Shown here: positions 11,692 to 17,679 of the stretch, piece by piece
Layout: each line of letters begins with the position of its first letter
Numbering within the stretch: position 1 is the stretch's first letter
Origin: a virus
Virus genome (UHGV): UHGV-0461192
Length of the DNA: 34,141 bases
Direction: 5' to 3' (one strand)
The notes under the pieces: model-generated
Told to the model about the DNA's origin: nothing
Databases searched by the model: none
The model's input: the letters and a program-made list of their open reading frames with translations, nothing else
Position numbers and translations under genes: made by a program

Positions 11692-11933
11692 ATTGACTTA
11701 GAAAAAGTCCGGGGCTATAGTTTCCGCGCAGCCGCAAAATCGGTTGCCGGGATTGGCGTCCCGGATATCTAAGTGACGCATAGCCGCGTTAGCGGTTTTT
11801 TTATGTGTTAGGCACGGCCACATTCGCATTATGGTGGGCTGTGTGGGGGCTTCTGTGGAAGCGCCGGGTTCACTTAGCCGGTTACGCCAACCCTGCACAG
11901 CTCACCACCAGATGATTGGCGTCGCTGGTGGTG

Positions 11934-12752
11934 ATGAAAAAAACACTAAGTGAGGCCACTGCGATGACAGTCCAAATATCTGCGGAATCCCTTTCTCCGC
12001 TACATCATAACCAACTTCCCGTCATCACTACTGAATTGCTTGCCAGTTTGTATGGCACGGAAGTAAATGGTATCCAGCAAAACTTCAAGCGCAACATCGC
12101 CAGATTTGTCGTAGGAAAGCATTTTTTTAAGCTGGAAGGTAATGAATTACGCGACTTCAAAAACAGACTGACAGATAGTCAGTCAGTTGCTAAACATACC
12201 CGATCCCTCATTCTCTGGACAGAACGCGGCGCAGCTCGCCATGCCAAAATGCTGGAAACAGAACAGGCCTGGGAAGTTTTCGAAAAGCTGGAAGATTGTT
12301 ATTTTAGCCAGCGTCCAGAGAGGCGGAGTACAACTACCGATGACCGTACTCCCTTGCGTGATGCCGTTAATATACTGGTCGGCAAGAAAGGCATGATGTA
12401 TCCCGATGCCTACACCATGATTCATCAACGCTTCGCCGTCTCTCACATAGAACAACTGTCACAGACGCAAATGTTAGAGGCGATTGAATACATCCACTGC
12501 CTGCTACTCGATGAAAATCACCCAACCATTCCAGATTTTTCTTTTATCACCACTATCAAAAATGGAAAAGTGACCGGGATGCGCCATGTTGCCAAAGGCG
12601 AACATCTGATGACCTTTGACGCTTTCAAAGAGATCGCTGAGCGGGCAGGGTATCTGGTGATCCACAGCGACAATCTGCGAAGTATGACACTGGATAAATT
12701 GATGGTAATGGGGAAAAAGTCGGCTATATCCGTTGCTAATTCAGCATTTTGA
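11934..12752 (+). CDS. ORF6N-domain protein, putative antirepressor
   Basis: N-terminal LPVITTELLASLYGTEVNGIQQNFKRNIARFVVGKHFFKLEGNEL resembles the ORF6N antirepressor-type domain; ORF opens with TTG at 11916, ATG at 11934 or 11964 more likely. Confidence 0.55.
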   Translation: MKKTLSEATAMTVQISAESLSPLHHNQLPVITTELLASLYGTEVNGIQQNFKRNIARFVVGKHFFKLEGNELRDFKNRLTDSQSVAKHTRSLILWTERGAARHAKMLETEQAWEVFEKLEDCYFSQRPERRSTTTDDRTPLRDAVNILVGKKGMMYPDAYTMIHQRFAVSHIEQLSQTQMLEAIEYIHCLLLDENHPTIPDFSFITTIKNGKVTGMRHVAKGEHLMTFDAFKEIAERAGYLVIHSDNLRSMTLDKLMVMGKKSAISVANSAF

Positions 12753-12780
12753 CAGGTTGTTTGGGGCGGAAATACTCTAT

Positions 12781-12848
12781 TTGCGCTTAAAAAGGTATTT
12801 GACCACGACCAGCACGAGACCGAATACCTCTGTCAAAGTACCGCCCAT
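12781..12848. repeat. direct repeat copy A (remnant of the 3' end of a homologue of the 16200-16805 gene)
   Basis: 68 bp about 93 percent identical to 16204-16271; on the minus strand encodes MGGTLTEVFGLVLVVVKYLFKRK-stop with an in-frame stop 4 codons upstream. Confidence 0.75.
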
Positions 12849-12926
12849 ATAAAACAGTTACATATGCACTTGATGACTAAGCTGGCACCAGGTTAACACC
12901 TGGCGCCAGCTTGAAGGAGACTTCAG

Positions 12927-13850
12927 TTATTGGTTTCTGAGGAAAGCGATTCTTGAAAGGGTCATTTGCGTCTGGCAGTCGACCATTTTCTTGACTTCAG
13001 CATCTGTTCCCTGCATTGAAACTTTACCGCACATAGCATCCTTAGTTTTGATCCACTGACGCTGAGAAGGCAGCAAATCTTTTTTCTTCGCCGGGGTTAA
13101 CTTGCTCCAGACGGTACTCAAATCAGAGTCGGCATTCGCAAATGCCATTCGGGACTGATCAAGGTTGTCAGCTTTTTGCGGCTGAAGTTGTGCCTGTCTC
13201 TCTATTTGCTTCTCCGCCTCATACTTAGCCTGTTCTTGCGCCCTGAGTTGCACCTGTTGTTCCGCTTCAATTTGACTCTGTTGGGCATCCTTAGCCTGCT
13301 GGATTTTCTGCTGCTCAACGATCGGGGTGATAATGGAAAGCGATGTCAGTAAAGCGGCGCCCACTGATATCGGATTATCAGTAGAGGTTTTTACAAAAAC
13401 GTTTTTCTGATCGTCGGTCGCCTGCACGGTGTAGGTGATACGTTTTGAAAAGGCGTTTGCGTTGTTCTCCAAAAACAGGCTTTCCATTTGCTTATCGAGA
13501 TTACGATTAAAATTCTTTCTGTAAGCATCTGAAAGCTGGACGTACTCGTTCGCAGATAGAGTCATCGTCACGGTCCCTTCACAAGTTTTCATTGTGCTGC
13601 CCGTGTCACTTGATGTTGTGGAGATCTCAGAGATGGCTAGTTTGATCTTGTCCAGTGTGCTTCGTTTGGTCTGATTAGTGACATCAGGGTATTTATCGAC
13701 CTGTTCAGAGAGTCCTTCATAAGCAGATTTTTTTAATAAATCCATGAGAGCTGACTGGGTTATTTCCGAAGAACAACCGATCTCATCTTTTTTGTTATCA
13801 CAGCCTGTAAGGGCAATGGCGAGTAAGAGTACTGAGTATTTTAATCTCAT
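12927..13850 (-). CDS. lipoprotein with C-terminal DUF1311/LprI-like domain
   Basis: signal peptide plus lipobox (LLLAIALTGC); Q-rich coiled region; C-terminal QRQWIKTKDAMCG...DCQTQMTLSRIAFLRN fits the DUF1311 pattern. Confidence 0.6.
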   Translation of the reverse strand: MRLKYSVLLLAIALTGCDNKKDEIGCSSEITQSALMDLLKKSAYEGLSEQVDKYPDVTNQTKRSTLDKIKLAISEISTTSSDTGSTMKTCEGTVTMTLSANEYVQLSDAYRKNFNRNLDKQMESLFLENNANAFSKRITYTVQATDDQKNVFVKTSTDNPISVGAALLTSLSIITPIVEQQKIQQAKDAQQSQIEAEQQVQLRAQEQAKYEAEKQIERQAQLQPQKADNLDQSRMAFANADSDLSTVWSKLTPAKKKDLLPSQRQWIKTKDAMCGKVSMQGTDAEVKKMVDCQTQMTLSRIAFLRNQ

Positions 13851-15038
13851 GAATTCCCTTTAGAGTAAGGATTGGTTTTTAAGACGCGGTCTGTAATCAG
13901 TCCCGAGAGCTACAGTAAACAACGCTGAGCACTGAACGCATCACAGGTAAGGTAAAAGGTGATATCGGCAAAGGCTGTGAAACCTTTAATTCAACAGATG
14001 GGAACGGTATGCGCAGGATCCTGTAACGACGCTCCCAAAACCGGAAACCTGTAAGGCATGTTTTCGCTGCTGAACTTAATATACGAACCTGCACTATCAT
14101 GAACATATTTTATATCGTTATACCCCGAGTGATTGTGCCCGGCAATGGATAGTGTCCTGGAGGAACTATTTCTACTGTAAAAGGTAGATATTTAATTTCA
14201 GTTTTGAATTATTCCCTGCTGTTAATAACAATGGCTGTATATGGCACCGAGTAGGCATTTTTTCGCTTACTGAAGGGCAGCTGTGAGCGAGGAACAGACT
14301 TTCCCTACTTCGTTGAGAGTACACCTAGTACAATCAAGGCTAAATGATAAAAATATACAAAATATCATATTTATGATATATATAATGGCATTAATCTTAT
14401 TCTTGGATTACGTTGAAAGGGTAATATTATATTTGTGTAACATAGTTTAGATAACAATGCCGTTATGGGGGGGGGAAAGACATTTCAACATATTAGCTTT
14501 GTATCTAACGCTCATGTAGATCTCGATTTTGAACTTAAAGAACAATTATTTTTTAGAGAGCAAGGTATTTTTGGGGAACAAAAACATAAAGTAATGGAGA
14601 GAGGAGAATGTATCAAAAAATCATCGATTTAATTTAGATTGTCCGTATAGTTGGGGGTAAGTCGAATCGCTGGGCTACATGGAATATTGTGTCAAGTAAA
14701 AATATATTTCAATCTTGCAATAACCGATTGTTGAAAATAATGTCAAATCTTAATGGTGAATGGGGAGAATATAATAAACATGAGTCGATATTATGCAAAT
14801 GGATTTAAATATTTTATACCCGAAGACATAGGGTTTCGAGAGTTCGATGAGACTACTTTGAATGCTTTCGAATTTGCTGGCTAAAACATATAGGTTATAT
14901 CTTACATCTGTTTGTAATGGAGCGTAGATGCGACAAGCTACACCATAATAATCATATTATGATATATTGTTAAGTTGTTATGGCATTAAATAAAATTATG
15001 TCATTTTGTTAACCAAGCAAGAATCAAAGGACTTTTAG

Positions 15039-15737
15039 ATGGGTACGGCATTAATTTCAAGCTTTATTAGTGGTGCAATAGCTATAATCTCTATTGCTAT
15101 ATCTACTTATAATCAGAATAGAATAAACAAGCTCAATGAATCACTGGATGTAAGGAGAAAACATCAGTACTATATTGAACCGTTAATTCGCTCAGCTTCA
15201 GACTTACAAAGCCGTATTTATAATATATTAGAATTGGGGTTCATTGAAGAGTTTTATCATAATGGGAATAAGCGCCAACAAGATTATGTTATCAACAATA
15301 CTGTTTTTCTTTTTTCCCAGTTTTTTGCATGGACAGAAGCTGCCCGCATAGACATTCAATACCTTAGCCTAGAAAAAAATAAAAAAATGAGGGAGTTTAT
15401 TAGATTACAGAACAATATTAACTCATTAATCCAAACAGACGTCTTTGGTCAGTATTTTATGTTTTTCATAGGAGAGCAGAGAGCTATTGCAGAAAAGATG
15501 CTGATATCAACAGATACTGGATTTGATTGCATAGGTTACGGCAGTTTCACAAAGGAAAATTGCTTTATCAATGAGCCATTTTTTTTAGATTTAAACAATG
15601 AAGTGATAAATATGACAAGAGATATCGGAATTTATAAAGAAAGGCTAATCAGAATACAGCACGCGTTAATCGATTTAATTAATTTTCTTGATCCTGGCAT
15701 GATTCGATTTGACGGAAAAAAATATGGAAAAATATAA
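15039..15737 (+). CDS. hypothetical membrane-anchored protein (orphan, low GC)
   Basis: 232-aa ORF in a strongly AT-rich stretch; N-terminal hydrophobic helix (ALISSFISGAIAIISIAI) followed by a soluble domain; no recognisable family. Confidence 0.5.
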   Translation: MGTALISSFISGAIAIISIAISTYNQNRINKLNESLDVRRKHQYYIEPLIRSASDLQSRIYNILELGFIEEFYHNGNKRQQDYVINNTVFLFSQFFAWTEAARIDIQYLSLEKNKKMREFIRLQNNINSLIQTDVFGQYFMFFIGEQRAIAEKMLISTDTGFDCIGYGSFTKENCFINEPFFLDLNNEVINMTRDIGIYKERLIRIQHALIDLINFLDPGMIRFDGKKYGKI

Positions 15738-15921
15738 CCCAGATGATTCGTATCAAGGTAAGTTGCTATATGTATCAATTTAATTATGGTTGGGTGAAAT
15801 TTATGTTAATAGTAGCGGAGGGTTAGTTAAAATATGCTCTCAGTGATTTTTGGATAGTTCTTTTATTTATCATTGAAAGTAAATATGTATAGCTTCAAGA
15901 TTTACAAGTGAATCTGTTTAT

Positions 15922-15955
15922 TGACAGTCCGCTTATGGCACAGAGCGGACTGTCA
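15922..15955. terminator. strong hairpin between convergent genes (putative bidirectional terminator)
   Basis: perfect 11-bp stem TGACAGTCCGC / GCGGACTGTCA with 12-nt loop, A/T-rich flanks. Confidence 0.45.
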
Positions 15956-16199
15956 TATTAAATTTGGCTCCACGCCATAGATGTGTCAGCTCATATCTTA
16001 TCTAATACACACAATAACTTTCTCATTCTTGGAGAATTATTTTTTTAAGGGTAGGTGTTGACGTTAGAGCAAAAGAATGGTGATTTTTTTGATGTGTATT
16101 ACGTTGGAACTGATGGGAATAACTATCTGTTTTCAACGCACTGCTAATTTATCAAGGCCCTTTGATCAGGGCCTTCGAAAGACTGTTGGACCGAGAGAG

Positions 16200-16805
16200 T
16201 TACTTGCGTTTAAAAAGGTATTTTGTCACGACCAGCACGAGGCCGAATACCTCTGTCAAAGTACCGCCCATGTACAACTGTAGTGTTAAATCCTCAAATT
16301 CCAGCTTACCTGCGCCGTCGGCAATAAATACACCATTCATTATCAGAAGTTGGAAAGCAAGGATAATCAGGAACCATTTCCCGTATCGTTTTTTTAGAGC
16401 GATTTCTGCTTCAAAATCTTTGTTGTTGAGTTGTTTGCGCTCATGCTCGGTATCAAGTGAATTCACCTGTTTCACAGATGTGAACTCGGTCAAGATTTTA
16501 CTCTCAGTACGGGTGACTTGTTGAGAGGGTGTAGCAGTTGGAATTCTTTTGCTAGACGCAGCTACAGCCATTTTGCGAGCTTCGGCAGCTCTTTTTCTGG
16601 CTATTCCGCGAATACGGACAGCCGTTTTTTTGGGGGCGTGCGAAACCTTTGGCTGAGGTGAAGCTTCGTCAGGAGACTGAACCGGAGTTTCATCGTCCTC
16701 CGGCTCAACCTCTTCTGCTAACTGACGGTGTAGGTTGAGGGAATCCTTCAGTCTGCGTGCTACTTCCTGTTTGAAACGGCTGTTAAAATCGTCATCCGAT
16801 GGCAT
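16200..16805 (-). CDS. hypothetical protein with charged N-terminal region and C-terminal transmembrane helices
   Basis: 201-aa ORF directly downstream of (4 aa gap) the ImmA-like gene; C-terminal hydrophobic segments (WFLIILAFQLLIMNGVFIA, VFGLVLVVTKYLF). Confidence 0.55.
   Translation of the reverse strand: MPSDDDFNSRFKQEVARRLKDSLNLHRQLAEEVEPEDDETPVQSPDEASPQPKVSHAPKKTAVRIRGIARKRAAEARKMAVAASSKRIPTATPSQQVTRTESKILTEFTSVKQVNSLDTEHERKQLNNKDFEAEIALKKRYGKWFLIILAFQLLIMNGVFIADGAGKLEFEDLTLQLYMGGTLTEVFGLVLVVTKYLFKRK
16204..16271. repeat. direct repeat copy B (3' end of the 16200-16805 gene)
   Basis: matches 12781-12848 with 5 mismatches in 68 bp. Confidence 0.75.
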
Positions 16806-16814
16806 TTTAAAGCG

Positions 16815-17303
16815 TTACCCCAACCTCAAGTTCTTTAAACGATAAGTCATCGCATCGTCAGATACGCCAAAATAATGCGCCATTATATAACTTGGTTGAC
16901 CGTCAGCGTGCAGTTTTCTGACCTCATCTACCGGCATCAGAAGTTCTGCTGCGAACTTGTTTGCAAAAATTTCATCAGGATGCGTTCCGGCGCTTGCGGT
17001 TTCGCCACGTAAATCAACGTACTCATATTCATCGCTATGCGATGCTTGCCGGGCGATGTAATGCCCCAACTCATGCCCACATGAAAAACGTTGACGAACT
17101 TTGTTGTCATCACTGTTTAGAAAGATCGCTGGATCTTGATCTTTTTGTTTAATCAGTGCGCCAGAAACTTTCCCAGGAAGATCGGTAATAAAAACATCTA
17201 ATCCCATGTCGTGAGCAATTTTCGCTGGATCAACAGGGAAACCACGCCCGCACCAGAACGTGTCCAGCACTCGCCGGGCGTGCTCTCTTGGGTTGGTAGC
17301 CAT
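16815..17303 (-). CDS. ImmA/IrrE-family zinc metallopeptidase
   Basis: 162-aa ORF with HEXXH motif (GHELGHY) in a context typical of ImmA/IrrE (DUF955) peptidases; GGAGG RBS upstream. Confidence 0.7.
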   Translation of the reverse strand: MATNPREHARRVLDTFWCGRGFPVDPAKIAHDMGLDVFITDLPGKVSGALIKQKDQDPAIFLNSDDNKVRQRFSCGHELGHYIARQASHSDEYEYVDLRGETASAGTHPDEIFANKFAAELLMPVDEVRKLHADGQPSYIMAHYFGVSDDAMTYRLKNLRLG

Positions 17304-17679
17304 AGCTCCTCCAGTTACTGCATTACGATTATTGGTTGAAATATAGACAGCATGTTCCGTACCACATTCCTGTAAAAGTGCAAATTCTGCACTTCTGGTA
17401 CGATATTAACTGTTAGTAGTAAAGTCTTCCAGATAAATCACTTTAAAATCTTGTGAATTGCTTGCTTTTTACGCTGTATTGTGGATGGTTCAATGTTTCC
17501 AGTAAAAACATACATGATAATCATGAGTTTAGTGTTTTTTTAGGCGTCTATATGTTTCTGGAAAATACAGGTCTAACCTGATCTTATCGTTGAGATTTTT
17601 TGTACTCAGTATGCGTGAACGATTCGACCAGGTGACTGTGTACGTGAAGAAGACCGCCCTTAATATTTTAAATGTGCAA

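What the first reader, a model, noticed from the sequence alone, without database searches (positions are those of the whole stretch)
12781..16280. AT-rich 3.4 kb cargo cassette bracketed by ~70 bp direct repeats
The last ~23 codons and stop of the membrane-protein gene (16200-16805) are duplicated, about 93 percent identical, at 12781-12848, where the copy is cut off by an upstream stop. Between the two copies lie a DUF1311/LprI-like lipoprotein gene, more than 1 kb of very AT-rich sequence with no convincing ORF, and an orphan membrane-anchored protein gene. The layout looks like a recently acquired moron or defence cassette inserted or exchanged by recombination at the 3' end of a resident gene.
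Basis: seen in the sequence. Interest (0 to 1): 0.6.

Follow-up and report, generated by a model that had tools for sequence, protein, structure and literature searches.

The report
Prophage cargo slot with recombination scar
The repeat is real and marks an old recombination scar at a cargo slot of an E. coli ST131 prophage; the AT-rich part of the cargo is a hairpin-bounded gene cassette also found in the fun(Z) slot of P2-like phages, where many such cassettes carry anti-phage defence genes.

Summary
Window 12778-12858 and 16201-16281 are 81-nt direct repeats (72/81 identical). The right copy is the 3' end of a 201-aa membrane-protein gene. The left copy is a dead 26-codon remnant of another allele.

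The 3.4 kb between them is not one recent cassette. A left block (scar plus LprI-like lipoprotein gene, normal GC) is shared by all diverged relatives, so the scar is old. A 1.7-kb AT-rich unit (14276-15950) encodes ORF1 and is 86% identical to the P2-EC58 Z-region insert. It is bounded by two conserved 24-nt hairpins that also bound cargo cassettes in P2-like phages, including P2's own fun(Z).

Relatives carry other cassettes in the same slot. One genome of 5,426 (GPEC172) has the same prophage without cargo. Its single copy is a left/right chimera, so it is a secondary deletion by crossover between the repeats.

ORF1 is a membrane-anchored helical protein, distantly related to the one-TM partner of RT-nitrilase defence systems, and always found alone. 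An anti-phage role is inferred, not shown. The slot and the scar are ordinary. The hairpin-delimited cassette architecture shared by unrelated phages is the interesting part.

The parts
11916..12752 (+). ORF6N/anti-repressor-like gene; fixed left neighbour of the slot
   Evidence: PF10543 E = 1e-21; phrog_4792 anti-repressor; annotated in RefSeq
12778..12858 (-). Left repeat copy: dead remnant (26 codons plus stop, preceded by a stop) of a different allele of the membrane-protein gene; a recombination scar
   Evidence: present in all LprI-carrying relatives in two decayed versions
12820..12848 (.). 29-nt stretch identical in both copies (right-copy equivalent 16243-16271), in which the GPEC172 crossover occurred
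12927..13850 (-). LprI/DUF1311-like lipoprotein gene (307 aa; signal peptide ending LTGC; Q/E-rich middle; C-terminal LprI domain); normal GC
   Evidence: phrog_5094; no PADLOC or NCBIfam hit
13851..14259 (.). Non-coding region upstream of the LprI-like gene, 98% identical in JX2 and SE11; the homology with relatives that carry other cargo ends here
14276..14299 (+). Degenerate type B border hairpin (GGCAGCTGTGAGCGAGGAACAGAC), preceded by the junction spacer motif ACTGAAGG; 5' border of the ORF1 cassette
14280..15038 (+). AT-rich leader of the ORF1 cassette, with two decaying small ORFs (14465-14632, 14753-14884)
   Evidence: 86% identical to P2-EC58; the small ORFs are kept in L011 and broken in P2-EC58
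15039..15737 (+). ORF1: 232-aa protein with an N-terminal membrane helix and a helical bundle; named 'lysogenic protein' only by propagation from P2-EC58
15927..15950 (+). Type A border hairpin (GTCCGCTTATGGCACAGAGCGGAC); the extended 13-bp stem spans 15922-15955; 3' border of the ORF1 cassette
   Evidence: (z = -5.2)
15927..16011 (+). Terminal element (A hairpin plus an extension of about 60 nt) shared with the gene-G side of the P2-like Z/fun slot; fixed right border of the slot in this lambdoid family
16201..16281 (-). Right repeat copy: functional 3' end of the membrane-protein gene; 81/81 identical in every held relative that has the gene
16200..16805 (-). 201-aa protein gene with two C-terminal hydrophobic helices (phrog_5346, function unknown)
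16815..17303 (-). ImmA/IrrE (M78) metallopeptidase gene, CapP-like, 10 bp upstream of the membrane gene on the same strand

Best explanation
The window is a lambdoid prophage integrated next to the tRNA-Gly/Cys/Leu cluster by pgsA. About 400 complete E. coli genomes carry it, many of them ST131. Between its ORF6N anti-repressor gene and a convergent ImmA plus membrane-protein operon lies a cargo slot.

Shown. The 81-bp direct repeat is a recombination scar. The right copy is the live 3' end of the membrane gene and the left copy is a dead remnant.

Inferred. The remnant comes from another allele. It was left when two related phages recombined unequally. One phage had ORF6N directly abutting the membrane gene. 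The other carried the LprI-like gene, the cargo and an intact membrane gene. The scar is old.

Shown. The scar is still recombinogenic. In GPEC172 a crossover in the 29-nt identical core removed all 3.4 kb and rebuilt an intact chimeric gene.

Shown. The cargo has two independent parts. The first is an LprI-like periplasmic lipoprotein gene of normal GC that stays with the scar in all relatives. The second is a 1.7-kb AT-rich cassette carrying ORF1, bounded by a type B hairpin on the left (degenerate here) and a type A hairpin on the right. The same cassette sits in the Z-region of P2-EC58. Hairpins with the same 7-bp stem and near-invariant loops bound cargo cassettes in P2-like phages (including P2 fun(Z)), in this lambdoid slot and in an island. 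Homology between loci breaks at these hairpins.

Inferred. Cassettes are swapped between co-resident temperate phages by recombination at these short shared borders. ORF1 is expressed from its own promoter in the lysogen and acts at the inner membrane as an anti-phage (exclusion or abortive-infection) effector. The LprI-like protein may inhibit lysozyme in the periplasm.
For: Identity of the window and the slot. Repeat and reading frame. Of the differences inside the shared coding part, three are synonymous and one triplet changes T to V, which fits two diverged alleles.

Age of the scar: every held LprI-carrying relative has the remnant at the same junction, in two versions, one with a 1-bp deletion, while the live copy is 81/81 identical everywhere. 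The remnant bin is the most diverged part of the left block from ORF6N's 3' half onward (88% against 95-99%).

Deletion: GPEC172 has the same tRNA site and identical protein accessions for integrase, ORF6N, ImmA and Q, with flanks 99.7-99.8% identical. Its single copy is left-type through 12819 and right-type from 12849. It is 1 of 448 genomes with a match.

Composite cargo: breakpoints at 14251/14259 (JX2, SE11), 14280-16009 (P2-EC58) and 15927 (YZMc3-1). GC is 0.46-0.48 for the LprI gene and 0.32 for the cassette.

Hairpins: 0 hits in 310 kb of shuffled sequence against 183 in 1.13 Mb; uniform orientation in all 90 loci; 47 B..A cassettes with median length 1577 bp and GC 0.37 against 0.49 in flanks; 29 protein clusters. 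Internal junctions are A, a conserved spacer, then B. 30% of alignment ends fall within 10 nt of a hairpin against 0.9% for random positions. P2 fun(Z) lies between the same hairpins. The composite junction occurs in 895 of 5426 E. coli genomes.

Defence link: 6 of 10 sampled cassette proteins hit PADLOC families, including SduA 4e-234, DarT 2e-43 and PDC-S35/TIR 1e-69.

ORF1: all 43 family members hit the RTasTM model, best 9.8e-11, which is the one-TM partner of RT-nitrilase systems (PMC9122126). The AF2 model has pLDDT 87 with a long N-terminal helix. Homologues are solo and lie in a Providencia P2-like Z slot, an AlpA/DUF4238 island, and next to SIR2-HerA or toxin-antitoxin modules.
Against: Only one cargo-free genome was found, and it is a chromosome-level WGS record, so an assembly fault was not excluded. 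The order of events (old scar, later deletion) rests on parsimony, not on a dated tree. The left hairpin is degenerate in the window, so this copy of the cassette may no longer be exchangeable on that side. The viral loci were collected with exact hairpin patterns, so the conservation of stems and loops is inflated by ascertainment; the breakpoint enrichment uses non-independent alignments from those same loci. No recombinase is linked to the hairpins, and their exchange mechanism is unknown. ORF1's own PADLOC hit is weak (1.8e-5) and there is no RT nearby. The fold search gave only generic helical bundles. No experiment shows that ORF1 or the LprI-like protein does anything. Only 6 of 10 sampled cassette proteins matched defence families.
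Confidence: 0.72

Rival explanations
1. A single 3.4-kb cassette was recently inserted at the 3' end of the resident membrane gene, perhaps by Campbell-type integration of a circle carrying a homologous 81-bp segment. That would duplicate the segment, and GPEC172 would be the ancestral empty site.
For: A reciprocal crossover in the 29-nt core relates the two states in either direction, so the chimeric GPEC172 copy alone does not give the direction. The GPEC172 flanks are nearly identical to the window.
Against: The remnant-LprI junction is shared, at the same nucleotide, by relatives whose left block is 91% identical overall and which carry different inner cargo; one version has a frameshift. 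The region is compositionally and historically composite. GPEC172 shares the derived A at 12819 with the window's remnant, which the JX2/SE11 remnants lack.
Confidence: 0.1
2. The hairpin-bounded cassettes move by a dedicated site-specific or hairpin-directed mechanism (integron-like, or IS200/IS605 PATE-like mobilisation in trans by a recombinase or HUH enzyme). On this view they do not move by general homologous recombination at short shared borders.
For: The loops are near-invariant (TGGCACA and TGAGCGA), not only the stems. Orientation is uniform, and head-to-tail arrays have a constant composite junction. The same borders occur in unrelated backbones. In L011 the left border of the ORF1 cassette is a hybrid hairpin, with an A-type 5' arm and loop joined to the cassette's own 3' arm, which places a junction inside the hairpin.
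Against: No recombinase gene co-occurs with the slots in the loci examined. Genes lie in either orientation (29 vs 18). No integron-type core sites were seen. The hybrid hairpin can also arise by slippage between the identical 7-nt arms. The conservation is inflated by how the loci were collected.
Confidence: 0.25
3. The 81-bp repeats are a shared functional element, such as a terminator or regulatory site, rather than a gene remnant.
For: They sit at the ends of convergent transcription units.
Against: The left copy keeps the reading frame of the gene's last 26 codons, with mostly synonymous differences. Neither the inverted-repeat scan nor the terminator-like scan reported a site within either copy. 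There are only two copies in the window, and elsewhere the sequence is always either the gene end or this remnant.
Confidence: 0.02
4. ORF1 and the LprI-like protein are lysogenic-conversion factors that benefit the host, for example envelope or virulence functions in ExPEC, rather than anti-phage genes.
For: The prophage is fixed in ST131. LprI-family proteins are named as lysozyme inhibitors. PADLOC has no hit for the LprI-like protein. Four of ten sampled cassette proteins have no defence match.
Against: ORF1 relatives sit in defence-rich slots and islands in several genera and are homologous to a defence-system component. Nothing tested here links ORF1 to virulence.
Confidence: 0.3

Closest known systems
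Z/fun variable region of P2-like coliphages (P2 fun(Z); P2-EC58 Z-region ORF1, GenBank AJ512683; Nilsson et al. 2004, Mol Biol Evol 21:1, not readable here)
   Same: The ORF1 cassette at 14280-16009 is 86% identical to the P2-EC58 insert, including its two annotated 'inverted repeats'. These are the type B and type A hairpins. P2 fun(Z) is AT-rich and lies between the same hairpins.
   Different: Here the cassette sits in a lambdoid prophage between an LprI-like gene and an ImmA/membrane operon, not between tail genes G and FI. The left hairpin is degenerate. Relatives hold arrays of up to four cassettes in this lambdoid slot.
Phage morons and prophage defence hotspots (Juhala/Hendrix morons; Rousset et al. 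2022, PMC9122126)
   Same: Accessory, AT-rich, self-contained transcription units between conserved genes, variable among close relatives and enriched in anti-phage genes.
   Different: As far as I read it, the Rousset study treats a different P2 locus (old/tin) and the P4 psu-int locus. Conserved 24-nt border hairpins with a composite A-spacer-B junction were not mentioned in the papers I could search.
Integron gene cassettes and attC sites
   Same: Small, mostly single-gene units in co-oriented head-to-tail arrays, separated by a structured imperfect-palindrome junction, with one fixed end of the array.
   Different: No IntI integrase is nearby. No GTTRRRY-type core sites were seen. Genes lie in either orientation and carry their own promoters. 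The border sequence, and not just the structure, is conserved.
RT-nitrilase + 1TM (DRT type 1-like) defence systems
   Same: All 43 ORF1-family members match the PADLOC RTasTM model. Length is similar (232 aa against a 229-position profile), the match is collinear, and there is an N-terminal TM helix.
   Different: There is no reverse transcriptase next to ORF1 or next to any of the seven distinct homologue contexts examined. The similarity is distant (best 9.8e-11; ORF1 itself 1.8e-5).
LprI / DUF1311 lysozyme-inhibitor family (PF07007)
   Same: The C-terminal 80 residues match PF07007 above the gathering score, and the N-terminus looks like a lipoprotein signal with LTGC.
   Different: The protein has an extra domain of about 150 residues and a Q/E-rich linker. 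It is prophage-borne (phrog_5094, function unknown). Inhibition of lysozyme was not tested.

Membership tests
Phage moron | Absent from otherwise near-identical relatives, lying between genes that are adjacent there | tested here: met
   GPEC172 lacks all cargo. L079, JX2, SE11 and YZMc3-1 carry other genes in the same place.
Phage moron | Base composition different from the surrounding phage genome | tested here: met
   GC is 0.32 at 14401-16000 against about 0.45-0.52 in the flanks. This is not met for the LprI gene, at 0.46-0.48.
Phage moron | Own promoter and terminator | tested here: inconclusive
   There is a strong terminator-like hairpin at 15922-15955. Promoter-like sites are no more frequent than in shuffles. 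A -35/-10 pair is annotated, not proven, in the P2-EC58 record.
Hairpin-bounded Z/fun-type cassette (as defined here) | Type B hairpin at one end and a co-oriented type A hairpin at the other | tested here: met
   B at 14276-14299 (4 substitutions from consensus, stem broken) and A at 15927-15950 (1 substitution).
Hairpin-bounded Z/fun-type cassette (as defined here) | The same cassette occurs in another backbone, with homology ending at the hairpins | tested here: met
   P2-EC58 14280-16009; island L011 14473-15950, ending at the A hairpin.
Integron gene cassette | attC site with R''/L''/L'/R' cores and an adjacent intI/attI | tested here: not met
   No integron integrase is present in the annotated prophage. 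The border sequences lack GTTRRRY cores. Gene orientation is mixed.
Transposon target-site duplication | Short identical direct repeats flanking an element that has terminal repeats and a transposase | tested here: not met
   The repeats are 81 nt and 89% identical, and one is part of a gene. No transposase lies between them.
DRT type 1-like (RT-nitrilase + 1TM) system | A reverse transcriptase gene adjacent to the TM protein | tested here: not met
   No RT is present in the window region or in the seven distinct homologue contexts.
DRT type 1-like (RT-nitrilase + 1TM) system | Homology of the TM protein to RTasTM | tested here: met
   43 of 43 family members hit PDLC03799, best E = 9.8e-11; ORF1 itself scores 1.8e-5.
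LprI family (PF07007) | Score above the Pfam gathering threshold | tested here: met
   30.8 bits against a cutoff of 22, residues 225-304.
LprI family (PF07007) | Lysozyme inhibition | not testable with these tools
   This needs a biochemical assay.
IS200/IS605-type PATE (non-autonomous hairpin element) | Subterminal hairpins in direct orientation at both ends, a fixed target motif, and a Y1 TnpA acting in trans | not tested
   Co-oriented end hairpins are seen. The target motif and any dependence on TnpA were not examined.

The most novel reading that the evidence does not exclude
The AT-rich unit is one member of a class that has been barely described. These are integrase-less gene cassettes delimited by two invariant 24-nt hairpins and joined head-to-tail through a fixed composite junction. 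Many carry anti-phage genes. They are exchanged by a hairpin-directed (site-specific) mechanism between unrelated temperate phages (P2-like and lambdoid) and genomic islands. This would amount to an integron-like shuffling system for phage defence.
Probability: 0.25. Interest if true: 0.85.

Novelty: new variant of a known kind. Interest (0 to 1): 0.55.

Why it matters
The repeat itself is an ordinary recombination scar. It is still a clean natural example of how 81 bp of diverged homology can delete 3.4 kb of prophage cargo and rebuild the gene.

What may matter more is the border architecture. The same two hairpins delimit cargo cassettes in P2-like phages (including the classical fun(Z) gene), in this ST131 lambdoid prophage and in an island. 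Sampled cassettes include Shedu, DarT and TIR-like genes. If the hairpins are true exchange sites, they explain how single-gene defences hop between unrelated phages living in one cell. They also give a simple sequence handle (two 24-mers) for mining uncharacterised defence candidates such as ORF1, a stand-alone relative of a DRT effector carried by about 400 sequenced E. coli genomes, many of them ST131.

Tried and rejected
- Rfam at E <= 1 on 12600-16400 gave only two noise hits, so no known RNA family covers the hairpins or the AT-rich leader.
- NCBIfam has no model for ORF1, the LprI-like protein, the membrane protein or the 77-aa ORF.
- The afdb50 fold library was unavailable.
- The small ORFs upstream of ORF1 were considered as partner genes and rejected. 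They are broken in P2-EC58 and absent from L014 and L015.
- Rejected: a 3.4-kb unit moving as a whole, and a target-site duplication (see the rivals and membership test).
- A single long hairpin as the unoccupied P2 slot was searched for and not found. A looser outer-flank pattern hit a different element family instead.
- A covariation test on the hairpin stems was not run. The stems hardly vary, and the sample was collected with patterns that fix them.
- Nilsson et al. 2004, which first described the P2-EC58 Z-region, is not held, so I cannot say how much of the hairpin architecture it already reports.
- I did not resolve the two extra matching places per ST131 genome reported.


Full report
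**What the window is.** The region 11900-17400 is found at about 100% identity in 403 of 5,426 complete E. coli genomes, many of them labelled ST131 (EC958, JJ1886 and others). RefSeq annotation of one of them places it in a lambdoid prophage integrated beside the tRNA-Gly/Cys/Leu cluster next to pgsA. The gene order is integrase, recombination genes, repressor/Cro, replication genes, then ORF6N, then the region in question, then ImmA, DUF1367/DUF1364, Q, lysis genes and head genes.

**The observation.** The direct repeat is real: 12778-12858 and 16201-16281, 81 nt, 72/81 identical, BLAST E = 2e-25, with only two copies in the window. The right copy is the last 26 codons and the stop of the 201-aa gene at 16200-16805 (minus strand). 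The left copy keeps the frame (LFYMGGTLTEVFGLVLVVVKYLFKRK*) but is preceded by a stop. Within the shared coding part, three single-base differences are synonymous and one triplet changes T to V. That pattern fits two alleles that diverged as working genes, rather than decay of an in-place duplication, although the numbers are small. The genes between the copies are as described. However, only about 14000-16100 is AT-rich (GC 0.32-0.39); the LprI-like gene is at 0.46-0.48.

**Relatives, and what varies.** Searches of E. coli genomes and viral contigs gave five kinds of slot content, all between the same anchors.
- The window type.
- Scar and LprI, followed by HNH and GIY-YIG genes (SE11, TUM13936, L107).
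- SMEK and methyltransferase genes next to the membrane gene, with no ORF6N or LprI (YZMc3-1).
- L079, which is 99% identical to the window on both sides but has four other cassettes replacing everything from inside the LprI gene (window 13048) to 15927.

Breakpoints cluster tightly. The left block ends at 14251/14259, the P2-EC58 block is 14280-16009, and the right block begins at 15927 (YZMc3-1, L079) or 16178 (JX2). So the 3.4 kb is composite.

**The scar is old and still active.** Every held relative with the LprI gene has the remnant at the same junction. The remnant comes in two versions: L1, as in the window, and L2, with a 1-bp deletion. These versions are reassorted with respect to inner cargo. 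The live copy is 81/81 identical wherever the gene is present. From ORF6N's 3' half onward, the remnant bin is the most diverged part of the left block (88% against 95-99%).

A synthetic cargo-free junction matched one genome, GPEC172, over 100% of its length at 99.7% identity. That genome has the same prophage at the same tRNA site, with identical protein accessions for integrase, ORF6N, ImmA and Q. Its single copy is left-type through 12819 and right-type from 12849, so a crossover in the identical 29 nt (12820-12848) relates the two states and yields an intact 201-aa chimeric protein. The scar predates the split of relatives whose left block is 91% identical overall, whereas the GPEC172 flanks are 99.7-99.8% identical to the window. 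The cargo-free state is therefore most simply a secondary deletion. I did not check the reads of that assembly.

How the scar arose is inferred: an unequal or illegitimate join between two phages. One phage had ORF6N abutting the membrane gene. The other had LprI, the cargo and the membrane gene.

**The AT-rich unit.** Window 14280-16009 is 86% identical to the whole insert of GenBank AJ512683, 'P2-EC58 proviral Z-region, ORF1'. The depositors of that record annotated a left and a right inverted repeat. The right edge (15927-16011) also matched about 300 other E. coli genomes in unannotated DNA. In P2-like prophages this sequence lies just after the tail-fibre assembly gene, at the border of the variable Z/fun slot. 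It begins with a strong hairpin (13-bp stem, z = -5.2).

**A hairpin family at cassette borders.** A 24-nt family, GTCCGCT-N10-AGCGGAC, has two loop types: A (about TCTGGCACAG) and B (about GTGAGCGAGG). It recurs at cassette borders in all these contexts. After collecting 85 more viral loci with exact A or B patterns, a fuzzy search gave 0 hits in 310 kb of shuffled sequence against 183 in 1.13 Mb. Orientation was uniform in all 90 loci. Segments run from B to A. Where two segments meet there is a composite junction of A, a short spacer ending in CTGAAGG, and B.

The 47 cassettes have a median length of 1577 bp and GC of 0.37 against 0.49 in the flanks. They encode 29 unrelated protein clusters, with genes in either orientation. 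Alignment ends between loci fall within 10 nt of a hairpin in 30% of cases, against 0.9% for random positions. Phage P2's own fun(Z) gene (GC 0.33; blocks T5 according to the record) lies between a B-like and an A hairpin, and neither hairpin is annotated there. The composite junction occurs in 895 of 5,426 E. coli genomes, at 1-3 copies each, always unannotated.

In the window, A is nearly perfect (15927-15950). B is degenerate (14276-14299) but is preceded by the spacer motif ACTGAAGG.

Two caveats apply. The loci were ascertained by the hairpins, so conservation is overstated, and the alignment ends are not independent.

**What the cargo does.** Six of ten sampled cassette proteins match defence families, some very strongly (SduA 4e-234, DarT 2e-43, PDC-S35/TIR 1e-69, HNH effector 4e-22).

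ORF1 has no Pfam or NCBIfam family. It has at least 290 homologues of about 240 aa in several bacterial orders, named 'lysogenic protein' only by propagation from the P2-EC58 record. Among 50,697 phage records it appears only in P2-EC58. All 43 aligned family members hit the PADLOC RTasTM model (best 9.8e-11; ORF1 itself 1.8e-5). RTasTM is the one-TM protein that accompanies RT-nitrilase systems (PMC9122126). The AlphaFold model is confident (pLDDT 87) and shows a helix from residue 3 to 65 followed by a helical bundle. Fold search finds only generic bundles.

In the seven distinct homologue contexts the gene is solo with no RT nearby. These include a Providencia P2-like Z slot, an island with AlpA and DUF4238, positions next to SIR2-HerA, toxin-antitoxin modules or an ORC/Cdc6-like ATPase, and plain chromosomal sites.

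I therefore infer, at about 50% confidence, that ORF1 is a stand-alone membrane-acting anti-phage protein. This is association plus distant homology, not a demonstration.

The 760-nt leader travels with ORF1 among E. coli elements. Its small ORFs are broken in P2-EC58 and absent from more distant loci. The LprI-like protein has a lipoprotein-type N-terminus and a C-terminal PF07007 domain, and no defence-HMM hit. A role in inhibiting lysozyme is only a family-name inference.

**Comparison and novelty.** The slot is a typical prophage moron/defence hotspot and the repeat is a typical mosaic-junction scar. The ORF1 cassette has been deposited since 2003 as the P2-EC58 Z-region.

What I could not find described in the searchable literature falls into three points:
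- the two-hairpin border architecture with its composite junction;
- its presence in a lambdoid prophage, in arrays;
- its link to known defence genes.

The founding paper is not held, so prior description cannot be excluded. It resembles integron arrays in layout but fails their defining features. Whether exchange is homologous or site-specific is open.

Noticed in passing
window 13819-13850; L017 (strain 222): A type I-E CRISPR spacer (GCGAGTAAGAGTACTGAGTATTTTAATCTCAT) matches the first codons of the LprI-like gene 32/32, with ATG in the PAM position. It was aligned in strain 222, and roughly 120 further genomes gave the same CRISPR-annotated match.
   Followed up: partly
window ~16218-16249 and ~17064-17095; L018 (JX21CE8): Two neighbouring spacers in one I-E array match the right repeat copy (3' end of the membrane gene, right-type sequence) and the ImmA gene. 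A further genome gave a CRISPR-annotated match inside the ImmA gene.
   Followed up: partly
window 15951-16011: The extension of about 60 nt after the A hairpin (TGTCA.ATTA..GCCATAGATGTGTCAGCTCA..ATACA) is conserved between the P2-like G-side border, this lambdoid slot border and a third prophage type (L008). Its role is unknown, and it has no Rfam match.
   Followed up: partly
L111-L129: A different, non-P2 backbone has a conserved border AATCTGACAG..CTGTCAGATTAGGTTTGATCTTCTACA, after which every locus diverges completely. This looks like another cargo-slot border sharing the CTGTCAGATTAGG motif.
   Followed up: no
window 16815-17303 and 16200-16805: An ImmA/IrrE peptidase that scores best against the CBASS regulator CapP (2.4e-25) lies 10 bp upstream of the 201-aa two-helix membrane protein on the same strand. 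This is possibly a regulated two-gene module of unknown function.
   Followed up: no
window 11808-12257: The 5' part of the ORF6N anti-repressor gene is only 63-72% identical to JX2 and SE11, while its 3' part is 95-99% identical. This is a mosaic junction inside the gene.
   Followed up: no
window 14465-14632 and 14753-14884: Two small ORFs in the AT-rich leader are conserved at the protein level in island L011 but disrupted by indels and stops in P2-EC58. They are probably remnants of a decayed upstream gene.
   Followed up: yes
L005 (FXCREC028); hits H3, H83, H84, H163: IS1 or IS3 insertions interrupt the cargo region in several genomes that carry this prophage (mostly IS1; H84, from a swine isolate, lists IS3). 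In FXCREC028 an IS1 follows the LprI gene and is followed directly by P2-type tail genes, suggesting an IS-mediated rearrangement.
   Followed up: no
L079 2200-6400: A near-identical prophage carries four other hairpin-bounded cassettes in the slot (125-aa multi-TM protein, 158-aa, 251-aa TM plus coiled-coil, 275-aa GIY-YIG) and keeps only the last 122 nt of the LprI gene.
   Followed up: partly
window 11900-17400: Each ST131 genome shows two further matching places for this query besides the prophage itself. I did not identify them.
   Followed up: no
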